A stretch of 64,000 nucleotides of DNA from Halobacteriovoraceae bacterium. Its GTDB lineage: Bacteria; Bdellovibrionota; Bacteriovoracia; Bacteriovoracales; Bacteriovoracaceae. Positions within the stretch are counted from its first letter, which is position 1. Each line of letters starts with the position of its first letter. Position numbers: made by a program. Location: the NCBI GenBank assembly GCA_963719505.1, contig CAVRCF010000005.1, forward strand, positions 576,001 to 640,000. Reading direction: 5' to 3'. This document shows positions 27,001 through 33,000 of this stretch, piece by piece.

Positions 27001-30000
27001 AACGCCAAGACTTTCATCGTCTTTTCATCTTCGACTGTAAATCTTGTCTCATTTCTTTTATTGAGTATCTCTATAACCCCAATAACCTTATCTTCTCGAT
27101 TTGTTATAGGATGACAAAGAATTGATTTAGTCTCAAACCCTGTTTCTCCATCGACTTTATCCGAGAAGCGAACCTTATCCGTACTCGTGTCAATATTGAG
27201 AGAAACACCTGTCGTAAAAACGCTTCCAGCAATACCTTTTCTGTAATCAAACTTTAACTTCTCTTTTTCAATACCTAAAGCTGCAGCAGCTTCTAGCTCA
27301 TTAGTCTGCGGATTTATGAGAAAGATGGTTGCTCTTTGGGCGTTAAGTATTCTTGAAATCTCTTCAAGCATAGAGTTGAGAAATGATTCTTGTGATCCAA
27401 AAGCTGTAATATCTTTAAAAAGAGAAAGCATTAAAGAGAAGACTTCAAACCCTTCAGTGGCCTGCTTATATCTTTCAGACAAAGCCATATTTGCAATACA
27501 GTCTCTCGCCCTATCGGGAGAAAAACTAGCAACATATTGCTCAATAAATCTTTTCATATTTTTTTGATCTTCTTCATCCAGCTCTGTCCCGTAGAGCATC
27601 TTATCCATGGAACCATCAAGACCAAAAGATCTTACAACATGCCCATCGAGATCAATTCTTAGTCTTTTAAACTGAATGGAAACTCTTATATTAGTGTTGA
27701 CAGAAATTTTCGATTCCGTACTAAACCCTAAACCAGTTACAGAGACGTCTTCAAGTTTTGCGTCCTCTATATAATGATACTTATTCATCTCATCTTCAAA
27801 TTCGACCATAAATCTCACATCATCACGAGATTCAACTGGAATCCTGAACGATTGAAAGAATTTAAATTCCGAAAAACTAGTAAACATAAAGTATCTCCTC
27901 TTAATATTTCAATTACTCTTCGGACTTTGAGACTAAAAGATTAAATAATGACAACTTTATTTGGCGATAAGACCTCATATCAATTACTTAAGTCATAGAC
28001 TCAGGCTTATTTTGGAAGACAAATTTACTCATGAACCGTATAATCATTTAAAATTACATAAATTACGAGCTTGATATGATTAACAAAATATTAATTTTTA
28101 TTTTTACCCTAAGTTGTGCGTCAATAAGACCCATCAACCAAGAACCCTCTTCAAGTTCTCAAAATTCACCACAAAACTCAAAAGTCACCACTGCACCTAA
28201 GAGCGAAGAACCACAATCCCTGCCAAAAGTGGAGAACCTCGTCTATAAGACAAAAACGTTTGAAAACAGTCCCCAGGTTAAAAGATATTGTGATCGCCTA
28301 GACAAGTACTTTAAAAAATATGAATGGGGTAAAAGCACCTGTCACGATTACTCATGGAACCATGTGAGAAGCTCTTTCTATGGAAATCCTATTATTTGGT
28401 TTGTCTTTGGAGATGAGAGTTTAGGGACAAGTAAAAAGAACGTCACATTTATCGAATGCGGTGTCCATGGAGATGAGATTACGCCGATAAAGTTTTGCTA
28501 TGACCTTTTAGAAGATCTCAAAGAAAATCCTCAAATAATTGGAACAGATAAACTTGTTGTTGTTGCCCCCCTTGTCACCCCCGACTCTTTCTTTAAAGAA
28601 AAGCCCACTCGAACGAATGCTCGAGGAGTAGACATAAACAGAAACTTCCCAACAAAAGACTGGAATCAAAAAGCAATATCACTATGGAAGTCGAGATATC
28701 ATTCAGACAAAAGAAGATACCCTGGTAAAAGTTCACTCAGTGAGCAAGAGACAATTTTCCAAGTAAATATCATTAAAAGGTACGATCCAAATAAAGTGAT
28801 TTCCATTCACGCCCCACTTACCCTTCTCGATTATGATGGTCCCCATATTGGGCAAGAAAATGGCATGGCCGCAAGAGAGCTCCTCGAGTCGATGAGTGAC
28901 AAAGCTGGTAAATACAAAGTTTCAAATTATCCCTTTTTTACCGGTAGCCTAGGCAATTGGGCCGGGAATGAACGAAATATTCCTACTTACACGTTAGAGC
29001 TGCCTAATTCAGATTGGCACAAGACTGATAGATATTATGCTCTTTTTAGAGAGGCAATATTCCATGCTATTGGCAATAATCTTCAATGAAAAAAATTATC
29101 GATGGTCTTGTTTATAGTTCATTGATCCCAGCTTTTTATATAACAGTCTTTACCCTTTACGCATTTTTGGTCAATTCTCAAAATATTGACCTCCAACTTC
29201 TCACCATTAATTTTCTGGGAACTTTTGTCTCTTACAATGCCATCGCCTTTATCTCTCTAAGGTTCAGAGGGATCAAGTCAATGAGGATGCAGTGGCAATA
29301 TCAATATCGATACTTGCTTATAGTTCTCTCTGTTCTCTCTTGCTGTGGAATTATATTCCTATACCCTTCACTAAACCTCTTTCAAATTTTAAATTTAGGC
29401 CATCTTTTTTTTCTTATCTTGATCTATGAGAAAAGATCGAAAAACTCGTTTAGTTTAAGAGCAAAGATTTTTATCAAACCTTTGATTATAAGCTATATAT
29501 GGGCAATGGTCGCGGTTGGTAATGTCCTTTTAGAGGGAGAAACTTTTAACTGGGTTCTCTTTGCTGAAAGCTTTCTCTCTATTGCCGCGTTAAGTCTGTT
29601 CTATGATATAAGAGACGAGAGGTATGACAAAGATCAGGATTTTAGAACGCTTGTTCATAAATTTGGTATTCAAAAAGTTAAGAGCATCAGCTATCGATTT
29701 TACCTTCTCAGTGTTTTACTAAGAATGCTCATCATCCCTTTTGCCTCTTACTGGTCTCTTTATATTATTGAGATGATTATCTATTCATTACTTCTCAAAA
29801 GAGCGAAGCCGGAAGTTAACAATCATCTCTATGTTATCGTTGTCGATGGTTTGATCGTTTTTAAACTTCTTTACGTTTTGGTATCTTACTAATAATGAAA
29901 ATCGGCAACATCAAAAAGATAGCTCCCACAATATAAGGTGTTACAGAGCCGTATTTCCAATAAAGTAGACTCGCCACTATTGGGCCAAAAACTCTTCCTA

Positions 30001-33000
30001 AAGACCCCAATGATCTAAAGACACCTAAACTTTGTCCTTGGCTCTCCATCGGAGTGTAGAGGGAAACGAGACTGGTCAATGTTGGGATTGCCATTGCCGA
30101 TCCGGTCGCGAGGAAAAAGAGCCCTACGTATAATAAGAACGATGAGTTCGCAAAAGCGATAAACAATAATCCAGGAATAATAAACCCAAGCCCACGCAAG
30201 GCCATACTTTTTTCTCCAATGATATTGGCCTTTCGTCTCACGTATCCACCTTGAACGAAGGCCAAGATAAGTCCGATAAAAATAAACATATAGGCATTGT
30301 CCATGGAGCTATAACCCAGTCTCTCCAGTGCTAGAAAAGTTAGGGTAAATTCCATTCCCGAAAAAGCAGCTATGAAAAAGAAGTATGCATAGTTGGTGAG
30401 ATTAACTTCTCTATAAGGCAGAGGTTTAAAAAGTTTTAGAGGATTGGCACTCCTTTGATGAGACTCAATATTTGATCTGTTCTCTTTTGGTAAAGTTTCT
30501 TTAAAACTTTTCATAATGAAAATGAGATTGATTAAAGAGAGAACGGCTGCGAATAATGCAGGCATAGAAAATGGATTGATTCCAAAAGACTCCAGACTTG
30601 GGTAGAGTTCGCTCAAATTCACTAAGCTCAATAGACCACCAATTGCTGGACCAAAAATAAACCCTAAAGCAAAGGCAATTCCTACAAACGCCATCCCTTT
30701 AGACCGATTGGAACGATCAGTAACATCGGCGACTGCGGCAGTTGCAGCTGAAATATTCCCACCCATGAGCCCTCCGATAACACGAGCAATAATAAGTAGA
30801 GTGAAAGATCCAGAGAAAAACCACAGGACATAGCTGACAAAAAGACCAAAAACAGAAATGACCAAAATGGGCTTTCGACCATACTTATCAGACAAGGACC
30901 CCCAAAAAGGTGCCGCAACAAATTGAAGAACTGAATAAAGTGCGCCTAATATTCCACCAAAAAGAACAATAGAACTTATGGTGGATCCACCAATACTAGC
31001 AAAGGCATTTAATGCTCCGAATAGGTTTTGCAAAAGAAAATTATCGGAATCCGTTCTCAAGTAATATTCCGCTAAAGACGGAAAGAGAGGAAAAATAATA
31101 GAGAAGCCAATTAAATCTAAAAAGAGAGTCAAAAAGACAATCTTAACTGTAGACTTTGCCTCTTTACCCAGAGGAGGTGACTTTTGAACCTGTTCAGGAA
31201 TTTCTTCTCGCAGTTTTTTCTTGTCTGTCTGGTAAAAAAGCTCCCCTAGATCCTTCTTCGAGGAGTTAACTAAGGTGTTTATATAATGGGCGTATCCTCG
31301 AGCCCAGTCTTCATCGCTGTTGAGGCAAGGAACAAAAACGGTGTGACATCCATGCTCTTCTAAATCTTCTTTTAGTTCATTACCAATTTCATCTGTTGTC
31401 TCCAGACAATCCACAACAAAACTTGGGCAATAAAATGCAATGCTCTTTGCTCCAGCCTTAGCTAGATCAATGGCGAATTCATCTGTCGCAGGCCCAAGCC
31501 ACTGCTCGCTACCAAAGCGGCTTTGAAAACAAAAGTGAATTTTTGATTTATCAAAATTGAGCTGATCTCTTAAAAGGACAAATGTTTCATAACAATGAAA
31601 ATAGTACTCGTCTTTTTTTTGAAGAACTCTTCTTAGAGGAATTCCGTGAAATGAGATAACGAGTTCAACTGGTTTCTCACGATCAAGATGTTCTTGTACC
31701 TTTTTGGCCCCAAGGTCGATGAAGGCTTTAAGGCGATGATAATTTGAGATGAGCTCAAAATCCGGAATATTAACCGCTTTTGCAAAAGTTGCTCCCACAG
31801 TGTCGACGACACTGGCGATCGTTGACTCTGAATACTGAGGAAACTGAGGTAAAACCACCAAACGGCTGGCCCTTTCATCAAAGTCCTCTTCCTCCCATGT
31901 TTTAAAAAGCGTTGGAACTCGAGGCTCTGTAAGAAGAAAACCATAGTTAATCTCTATATTGTCATCTAAGTATTTTTCGACCTCTAAGGCGAATAACCTG
32001 GTATTTTCAACAAGAGGAAACTTTTCTCCATCCCATATCCTACCGTATGCCTCTCCACTTTTCTTGGGCCTAAAAGGCAACACAAAAAGGTTGAGAATAA
32101 TCCACCACAACGCTCGTGGGAGATCAACAACTCTGGGGTCCCCTAAGAACTCTTTAAGGTACTTCCTCACATCTTTAGTGTTCGGAGTTTCCGGAGAACC
32201 TAGCTGACCGATGACGACTTTAACTTTACTATACATGACAATACCGATGGTCTCCCTAAAGGGCCTAACCAATTGATTTTTATTATTTAACAAGTAGTTT
32301 TCTTTTTACACAAATTGTTATAAACAACAAAGAAAAAAATATAAACAAAGACTATACGAGTTATTATGCCACGCAAAAAAGACCATTCGAGAAAAGAATC
32401 TGAACTTAAGACTGTCACCCTTCTTGGGAGTAACACCAACGAGTATAAGCAGGACTACGACCCTTCAATTTTAGAGTCATTTCCCAATAAGAATCCAACT
32501 TCTGAAGCATGGACGACGTTTATCTGTACTGAGTTCACTTCTCTTTGCCCAAAAACAGGACAGCCTGACTTTGCAAAGATTTATATCAATTATATCGCTG
32601 ATAAAAAAATGGTCGAAAGTAAATCTATGAAGCTTTATCTTTTTAGCTTTAGAAACCACGGTGATTTTCATGAAGACTGCATTCAAAAAATATGTAATGA
32701 TTTAACAAAACTGATGAAGCCAAAGTATATTGAAGTGATTGGAGAATTTACTCCAAGAGGTGGAATTGCTATTTTTCCATTCTCACAAGCTTCAAATGCT
32801 CAGGCAAAATTTAAAAAACTTAAAGAGACTCGCATGGCCAACTATTCTCCAGGAAGATATTCCATGGATCTAGCCCGACTCTATTAGAAAGGAATAAAAT
32901 GTTTGGATTAGGAACTACTGAATTAATCGTTATCGCATTTGTCATCGTTCTTCTTTTTGGAGGAAAAAAACTTCCTCAGTTAGGGCGATCTTTTGGTTCT

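What a model noticed while it worked through the whole genome (the two positions that open the first line are those of the whole stretch)
29861..32236. Ferrochelatase fused to an SLC75-like MFS transporter across the family
HemH (residues 7-319) is fused in frame to a full 12-TM MFS transporter most similar to eukaryotic SLC75A1/MFSD10 (34%). The fusion is typical of Bacteriovoracaceae and points to channelling of heme or porphyrin between synthesis and membrane transport.
Evidence so far: Domains. A junction-spanning query matches full length without stops in 31 of 41 family genomes (ORFs about 790-830 aa); 6 of 6 family genomes fused and 0 of 44 other phylum genomes, where HemH (317-390 aa) and MFS are separate. 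Search 66 found no paper.
(Added by a program. Inside this text positions count along the whole contig: contig position 576,001 is position 1 of the stretch shown here. "Call 12" and the like, gene names such as g00115 and contig names such as C1 are that model's own, and its searches are not shown. The text may have been shortened before it was handed on; [...] marks where a part breaks off. The agent that wrote the report below was given it as the finding of a first reader that could run no searches.)

Follow-up and report, generated by a model that had tools for sequence, protein, structure and literature searches.

The report
Ferrochelatase fused to an MFSD10-type transporter
In these predatory bacteria the last enzyme of heme synthesis is joined in one chain to a membrane transporter that is among the closest bacterial relatives of the poorly understood animal transporter MFSD10, which hints, without yet showing, that this transporter family moves heme or porphyrin.

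Summary
The fusion is real: one 791-aa ORF (29861-32236, minus strand) carries the genome's only ferrochelatase, with catalytic residues intact, then a structured linker and a 12-helix MFSD10-type transporter. It is fused in 135 of 163 family genomes. It is not confined to Bacteriovoracaceae: related fusions occur in Lentisphaera profundi and a Planctomycetota MAG, and the data fit one origin. Animal and fungal MFSD10 proteins nest among these fused transporters (100/99 support; AU p=0.014).

The halves are separable. Eight genomes with no detectable heme pathway keep the transporter alone, and all eight keep heme-copper oxidases. Seven of eight genomes without such oxidases lack it, but this rests on only about three independent comparisons. 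One Verrucomicrobia-type standalone copy faces a hemC-F-E-Y-H operon, whereas most sit beside coaD.

Best reading: a proton-coupled heme/protoporphyrin exporter tethered to ferrochelatase (0.4). Import (0.15) and an unrelated cargo (0.33) remain open. Strict channelling is not shown. My searches found no paper on the fusion.

The parts
29861..32236 (-). Fused gene, 791 aa: ferrochelatase, linker, MFS transporter (the frame is open up to a TTG at 32293; homologues begin near the ATG at 32236)
31280..32218 (-). Ferrochelatase domain, residues 7-319. H197, F273, D276, E279 and E283 align with human H263, F337, D340, E343 and E347 (human numbering partly recalled). L101-L102 stand where human has R164-Y165. 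Only ferrochelatase found in the genome.
31166..31279 (-). Linker, about residues 320-357, with two short helices and pLDDT mostly above 90; length tightly held across the family
29888..31165 (-). 12-helix MFS transporter of the MFSD10 clade, residues 358-783. D374, Y392, Q438, R485, E629, Q662, R741 and R748 are nearly invariant from bacteria to animals and fungi; G-x3-GP-x2-GG motif in helix 5.
32366..32887 (+). queF (preQ1 synthase), divergent neighbour. It marks the syntenic site (seen in 50 of 65 fetched fused loci, many with short flanks); no functional link is claimed.
29086..29892 (+). UbiA-family prenyltransferase-like gene, convergent, overlapping the 3' end by 32 bases. It does not match heme O synthase models and is present at only some related loci.

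Best explanation
The protein is a working protoporphyrin ferrochelatase held at the cytoplasmic face of the inner membrane by an MFSD10-type transporter. The transporter most likely exports porphyrin anions (heme b or unmetallated protoporphyrin IX) in exchange for protons. It takes surplus product or substrate from the enzyme beside it, so that oxygen-respiring cells do not build up toxic porphyrin. The coupling is loose: the transporter can also serve the general membrane pool, which would explain why it stays useful in lineages that lost heme synthesis. Shown: the fusion, the intact active site, the distribution and the trees. Inferred: enzyme activity, topology, substrate and direction.
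For: (1) One probable origin, kept across phyla. All 20 fused proteins examined from outside the family keep H197, F273, D276, E279 and E283 and lack the Arg-Tyr pair, as family members do, while 8 of 8 standalone Verrucomicrobia HemH have it. A 99-supported branch separates both fused groups from those standalone enzymes. The linker length is narrow, 57-67 residues in 55 of 58. (2) An independent genomic link: in L327 a standalone Verrucomicrobia-clade copy starts about 50 bases from a divergent hemC-hemF-hemE-hemY-hemH operon, and hemB ends next to it in 2 of 78 genome loci from one genus. (3) Eight genomes without detectable HemB, HemE or HemH keep the transporter, and all eight keep oxygen-type heme-copper oxidases; five other genomes without HemB and HemE lack both. 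Two of the eight keep heme O synthase. (4) The helix-5 antiporter-type motif is in 60 of 60 fused rows. MFSD10 is classed as a drug:H+ antiporter conferring NSAID resistance (PMC8154325). (5) Precedent: PefA, a drug:H+ MFS, exports heme and protoporphyrin and is kept in respiring heme auxotrophs (PMC2858704); HatT exports heme (PMC6303022).
Against: No transport or binding data exist. In 65 of 78 non-Bdellovibrionota genome loci the standalone gene follows coaD, beside pgsA and pgpA. Only 1 of 33 unfused metagenome loci of this clade had heme genes. The oxidase correlation shrinks to 3 independent pairs (sign test p 0.25-1), and three genomes have oxidases without the transporter (G024, G027, G055). 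No histidine is conserved in the transporter half to bind heme iron. G038 and G041 have no FecCD-type permease, which fits import better than export. Cytochrome bd was not searched, so 'without oxidase' does not prove anaerobic.
Confidence: 0.4

Rival explanations
1. The cargo is unrelated to porphyrins (for example a CoA precursor, a lipid or another organic anion needed in aerobic life). Two neighbouring genes fused once, and the transporter acts only as a membrane anchor or co-expression partner for ferrochelatase.
For: coaD precedes the standalone gene in 65 of 78 loci, with pgsA and pgpA divergent; glyA precedes it in another Verrucomicrobia group. Either half is lost repeatedly: 10 state changes on the rpoB tree, 4 of them loss of the transporter. 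G380 has the halves as two adjacent frames.
Against: The fused form spread between phyla intact, with a narrow linker and a shared active-site change. There is a second, independent placement beside a full heme operon. coaD adjacency was seen within one bacterial group and may be plain synteny.
Confidence: 0.33
2. The transporter imports heme or protoporphyrin (from prey or the environment). The fused ferrochelatase metallates imported protoporphyrin, and in lineages that lost synthesis the transporter is the heme uptake route.
For: Eight pathway-less genomes with oxidases keep it. G038 (99% complete) and G041 (97%) have no FecCD-type permease.
Against: Fused genomes make heme de novo: HemB is found in all but a few fragmented assemblies, and three of those checked have HemE. 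The antiporter-type motif and the precedents point to efflux. Three of five pathway-less genomes tested have a FecCD-type ABC system, and peptide ABC systems were not excluded.
Confidence: 0.15
3. The transporter supplies iron or an iron chelate to the ferrochelatase, as mitoferrin does in mitochondria (recalled). It is dispensable where ferrous iron is plentiful.
For: Fused enzymes have hydrophobic residues in place of the Arg-Tyr pair, and R164 belongs to the network proposed for metal binding before chelation (PMC9133952). Loss of the transporter tracks loss of oxygen reductases.
Against: The conserved cavity holds several arginines, which suits anions. No iron-uptake genes were recognised among the clustered neighbours scanned. 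The animal relative is described as an organic anion transporter.
Confidence: 0.07

Closest known systems
Protoporphyrin ferrochelatase PpfC/HemH (PF00762, TIGR00109)
   Same: Fold, catalytic histidine and acidic pi-helix residues; lies in a genome with HemB, HemE, HemF and a HemY-like gene, and no ChdC found.
   Different: Carries a 12-helix transporter at its C-terminus and lacks the Arg164-Tyr165 pair. The only enzyme fusion named in the passages read is HemH-ChdC of Cutibacterium acnes (PMC8529089, PMC13564367).
MFSD10 / TETRAN / SLC75A1 (TC 2.A.1.2, drug:H+ antiporter 1)
   Same: Best sequence and structure match in the PDB (33%); shared invariant cavity residues; animal and fungal members nest among fused bacterial rows.
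   Different: Bacterial and enzyme-fused. The physiological substrate of either is not established in what I read. The human sequence itself was not in my trees.
PefA of Streptococcus agalactiae and HatT of Clostridioides difficile (MFS heme/porphyrin exporters)
   Same: MFS exporters; PefA is kept in respiring heme auxotrophs, a distribution like the one seen here (PMC2858704).
   Different: Standalone and controlled by heme-sensing repressors (PefR, HatR). No such regulator was seen at this locus; orthology was not tested.
LplT-Aas and other MFS-enzyme fusions
   Same: An enzyme fused to an MFS that handles its substrate (PMC8154325).
   Different: Those fusions are usually C-terminal (PMC10710835); here the enzyme is N-terminal and is a chelatase.
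Mitochondrial ferrochelatase-ABCB7/ABCB10 complex
   Same: Ferrochelatase physically tied to membrane transporters (PMC6717564, search listing only).
   Different: Non-covalent, ABC rather than MFS, eukaryotic.

Membership tests
Ferrochelatase (HemH) | Score over the curated family cut-off and ferrochelatase fold | tested here: met
   TIGR00109 192.8 against 124.6; Foldseek hits to human, yeast and Bacillus enzymes, TM by target 0.74-0.84
Ferrochelatase (HemH) | Catalytic histidine (human H263), the criterion used in PMC8529089, plus F337, D340, E343, E347 | tested here: met
   H197, F273, D276, E279, E283 invariant in 65 of 65 family fusions and 20 of 20 outside fusions
Ferrochelatase (HemH) | [quoted passage not shown] | tested here: not met
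   Leu-Leu consensus in the family (86%, 95%); hydrophobic or small residues in 20 of 20 outside fusions
Protoporphyrin-dependent pathway (PpfC rather than CpfC) | HemF and protoporphyrinogen oxidase present, ChdC absent | tested here: inconclusive
   HemF found, ChdC not found in an 83.5% complete genome; the HemY-like gene scores 83.4 against a cut-off of 97.85
Ferrochelatase (HemH) | Iron insertion activity | not testable with these tools
   Needs complementation or assay
MFSD10 clade of DHA1 transporters | 12-helix MFS fold, closest solved relative MFSD10, grouping with named MFSD10 proteins | tested here: met
MFSD10 clade of DHA1 transporters | Helix-5 antiporter-type GP motif and membrane acidic residues | tested here: met
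   Motif in 60 of 60 fused rows; D374 and E629 invariant; the exact motif pattern is recalled
Tet(A)-type tetracycline efflux pumps | Score over the NCBIfam cut-off | tested here: not met
   170 against 475 bits
Heme/porphyrin exporters (PefA, HatT type) | Demonstrated efflux of heme or protoporphyrin | not testable with these tools
   No transport data; sequence relation to PefA or HatT not tested
[2Fe-2S]-bearing ferrochelatases | Four-cysteine internal or C-terminal motif | tested here: inconclusive
   Only C215, C277 and C304 are conserved at 90% or more and they are scattered; motif patterns were not scored formally

The most novel reading that the evidence does not exclude
Animal and fungal MFSD10/SLC75A1 descends from the transporter half of a bacterial ferrochelatase-transporter fusion and is a heme or porphyrin carrier. 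In bacteria the fusion hands heme directly from enzyme to membrane exit, and the freed half serves predators that lost heme synthesis and live on prey heme.
Probability: 0.3. Interest if true: 0.9.

Novelty: new variant of a known kind. Interest (0 to 1): 0.72.

Why it matters
How heme leaves ferrochelatase and crosses the bacterial inner membrane is poorly understood, and MFSD10 is a human transporter with a solved structure but no physiological substrate in the papers I saw. A natural fusion names a candidate substrate and gives a single gene that can be tested in laboratory E. coli, with cultured carriers (Halobacteriovorax, Bacteriovorax, Lentisphaera profundi by database names). The survey also points to repeated loss of heme synthesis in oxygen-respiring predatory bacteria, which I did not find described.

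Tried and rejected
Salvage-only system (ferrochelatase plus importer, no upstream pathway): rejected for G000, which has HemB, HemE and HemF, and for the family. Assembly artefact: rejected by 135 of 163 genomes. Family-restricted fusion: rejected. Treating other Bdellovibrionota MFS genes as the unfused counterpart: rejected, they match only from about residue 70 at 32-40%. Counting the roughly 100 'standalone' database proteins as splits: rejected, since some begin at a methionine found in the linker of fused proteins and may be gene-calling fragments. Complex prediction of the two halves as separate chains: no answer, score 0.00, not evidence either way. Single-sequence fold was useless (pLDDT 40.6). 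Promoter and terminator scan was no better than shuffles. Plasmid search gave only 32-34% haloarchaeal MFS genes. ESM Atlas gave generic MFS clusters, mostly Verrucomicrobiota, and did not place L348. Earlier scan notes: nothing found. The Opitutales check (50 of 78 carrier genomes: 49 with oxygen-type oxidases, 48 with a separate HemH) had no transporter-less control, so it only fails to refute. Fisher tests on genome counts (p 2e-8, 8e-4) overstate because kin are not independent.
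Full report
Observation. The window holds one open frame on the minus strand, 29861-32236 from the ATG, 791 residues. 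Residues 7-319 match Pfam Ferrochelatase and 367-752 MFS_1. The hemH model passes its cut-off, while Tet(A)-type models fall far short. It is the only ferrochelatase found in the genome. The closest solved protein is human MFSD10 by sequence and by fold (33% identity). A model from a 64-row alignment is confident over nearly the whole chain, linker included (pLDDT 89.5, pTM 0.74). MFS N-termini normally lie in the cytoplasm (established knowledge), which puts the enzyme at the inner face of the inner membrane.

Spread in the family. Of 101 genomes first drawn, 64 hold the full stop-free fusion and 5 more span the junction up to a contig end. The family has 162 genomes at least 88% complete. 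With G000, my tally is: 135 of 163 fused, 12 with the transporter alone, 1 with an in-frame stop in the linker (G380), 2 with the halves on separate contigs, and 13 with no transporter found, 3 of which look like assembly gaps (G071, G373, G399). Fused, transporter-only, enzyme-only and empty states all occur at the same site beside queF. On an rpoB tree of 58 family rows (FastTree, weak at the base) fused forms lie on both sides of the deepest supported split, so the fusion is ancestral to most or all of the family. The three states need 10 changes, 4 of them loss of the transporter. None of 226 other genomes of the phylum has this clade.

Beyond the family. A metagenome scan returned a fused gene in another gene context (L348). 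Its relatives include full HemH-MFS proteins named Lentisphaera profundi (P0491) and Planctomycetes bacterium (P0436). In the enzyme tree, a branch with support 99 separates both fused groups from standalone Verrucomicrobia enzymes (quick tree, few outgroups). All 20 outside fusions examined share the loss of the Arg-Tyr pair with the family, against 8 of 8 standalone enzymes that keep it. One origin followed by transfer between phyla is the simplest reading (inference); the direction is not known.

Relation to MFSD10. Among 50% representatives, a 45-row clade proved to hold animal, fungal and ichthyosporean MFSD10-like proteins. In a careful tree of 48 rows, 9 rows of that clade (7 identified through named cluster members) sit at 100/100 inside a 100/99 group with 7 ferrochelatase-fused proteins, including P0436. 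Forcing all 28 neighbouring bacterial rows together was rejected (AU p 0.014). I named that group after seeing the tree, the eukaryote stem is long, and the human protein was not among the rows, so the nesting is likely but not settled. D374, Y392, Q438, R485, E629, Q662, R741 and R748 are nearly invariant across 60 fused, 11 transporter-only, 77 Verrucomicrobia and 29 eukaryote-clade rows, which suggests one specific shared cargo. No histidine is conserved.

Does the enzyme work? H197, F273, D276, E279 and E283 align with human H263, F337, D340, E343 and E347 and are invariant in 65 of 65 family fusions. The histidine is the criterion for a functional enzyme in PMC8529089 (passages). G000 also has HemB, HemE, HemF and a HemY-like gene below cut-off; ChdC and HemJ were not found. 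So the fusion ends a de novo protoporphyrin pathway rather than a salvage route.

Is the cargo heme-related? For: eight genomes (G012, G022, G038, G041, G049, G065, G366, G367; 88-99% complete) lack detectable HemB, HemE and HemH. The five tested also lack HemC, yet all eight keep the transporter and oxygen-type oxidases, and two keep heme O synthase. For G366 and G367 the lack of HemH rests on the P0001 query only. Five other genomes without HemB and HemE (G014, G034, G042, G052, G058) lack the transporter and have no oxidase or only nitric oxide reductase. Over the family, 7 of 8 genomes without an oxygen-type oxidase lack it, against 6 of 155 with one. In L327 a standalone copy from the Verrucomicrobia clade faces a hemC-hemF-hemE-hemY-hemH operon across about 50 bases, and hemB abuts it in two Coraliomargarita loci. 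A rough estimate with assumed numbers puts two such adjacencies by chance at 0.5-2.5%. Against: coaD precedes the gene in 65 of 78 non-Bdellovibrionota genome loci; only 1 of 33 unfused metagenome loci of the clade has heme genes; the oxidase link rests on 3 independent pairs and is not significant; G024, G027 and G055 respire without it; and several lineages make heme without it.

Mechanism. I favour proton-coupled export of heme or protoporphyrin (0.4). The helix-5 antiporter-type motif is in 60 of 60 fused rows. MFSD10 is classed as a drug:H+ antiporter that gives NSAID resistance (PMC8154325, passages). PefA exports heme and protoporphyrin and is kept in respiring heme auxotrophs (PMC2858704, passages), and HatT exports heme (PMC6303022, passages). 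An exporter beside ferrochelatase would vent protoporphyrin when iron is short and move surplus heme out, which matters under oxygen (inference). Import (0.15) fits the two pathway-less genomes without a FecCD-type permease (2 of 5 tested). Unrelated cargo with the transporter as an anchor (0.33) fits the coaD context and the easy separation of the halves. Iron supply (0.07) rests on the altered Arg-Tyr site, part of a network proposed for metal binding (PMC9133952, passages). The narrow linker (57-67 residues in 55 of 58; two outliers were pattern misplacements) suggests a fixed geometry, but direct hand-over is not shown.

Novelty. Searches of the held library found no account of the fusion: MFSD10 with ferrochelatase 0 papers; MFSD10 with heme 12 papers, none on such a link by title and abstract start, seen as listings. 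Passages of PMC8529089 and PMC13564367 name only the HemH-ChdC fusion. PMC10710835 says MFS fusions are usually C-terminal and does not mention ferrochelatase. PMC4870792 had nothing relevant (passages). The two Willson 2019 surveys of transporter fusions and the 2021 paper on aquatic heme auxotrophy were not read, and no supplements were read, so an earlier listing cannot be excluded. Enzyme-MFS fusions and ferrochelatase-transporter complexes are known kinds, so this is a new variant. Its value lies in the substrate lead for the MFSD10 family.

Noticed in passing
G012, G022, G038, G041, G049, G065, G366, G367: Repeated apparent heme auxotrophy in oxygen-respiring Bacteriovoracaceae: no HemB, HemE or HemH found, oxidases kept; at least four separate places on the rpoB tree. 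Prey heme would be the obvious source.
   Followed up: partly
L051, L282, L300 (G009, G073, G372): One genus keeps the transporter alone at queF and carries a compact hem operon with a canonical Arg-Tyr ferrochelatase elsewhere, as if the pathway was lost and regained by transfer. G093 and G067 also have foreign-type hemH.
   Followed up: partly
L303:2741-5290 (G380): An in-frame stop in the linker leaves hemH and the transporter as two adjacent frames, the second starting at a linker methionine. Many fused genes have a linker methionine with AG-rich sequence upstream (G000 has none), a possible internal start.
   Followed up: partly
L201, L202, L047 (G037, G066, G027): Ferrochelatases left alone at the queF site after loss of the transporter are fast-evolving (long branches; two fall below the hemH cut-off) but keep the catalytic histidine.
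   Followed up: partly
L086-L164: In Opitutales the standalone MFSD10-type gene follows coaD in 65 of 78 loci, with pgsA and pgpA divergent; in another Verrucomicrobia group it follows glyA (L325, L326, L334, L350).
   Followed up: partly
P0270: A more distant MFS relative fused at its C-terminus to an acyltransferase domain, LplT/Aas-like in layout.
   Followed up: no
window 40223-42643 (-): 806-aa protein with a LuxC acyl-CoA reductase domain (66-459) and about 340 further residues with no Pfam match at E 1e-5; by eye they resemble an acyl-CoA ligase (recalled), so possibly another enzyme fusion.
   Followed up: no
window 20012-27887 (-): Run of a PilZ-GAF-sigma54 activator, a diadenylate cyclase (DAC), YbbR and, by eye, glmM, pdxJ, nnr and tsaE: a c-di-AMP synthase operon in a Gram-negative predator.
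   Followed up: no
G000:C1:224605-228667: rpoB is broken by frameshifts in this assembly, so the genome carries indel errors; broken genes elsewhere in it should be read with care.
   Followed up: no
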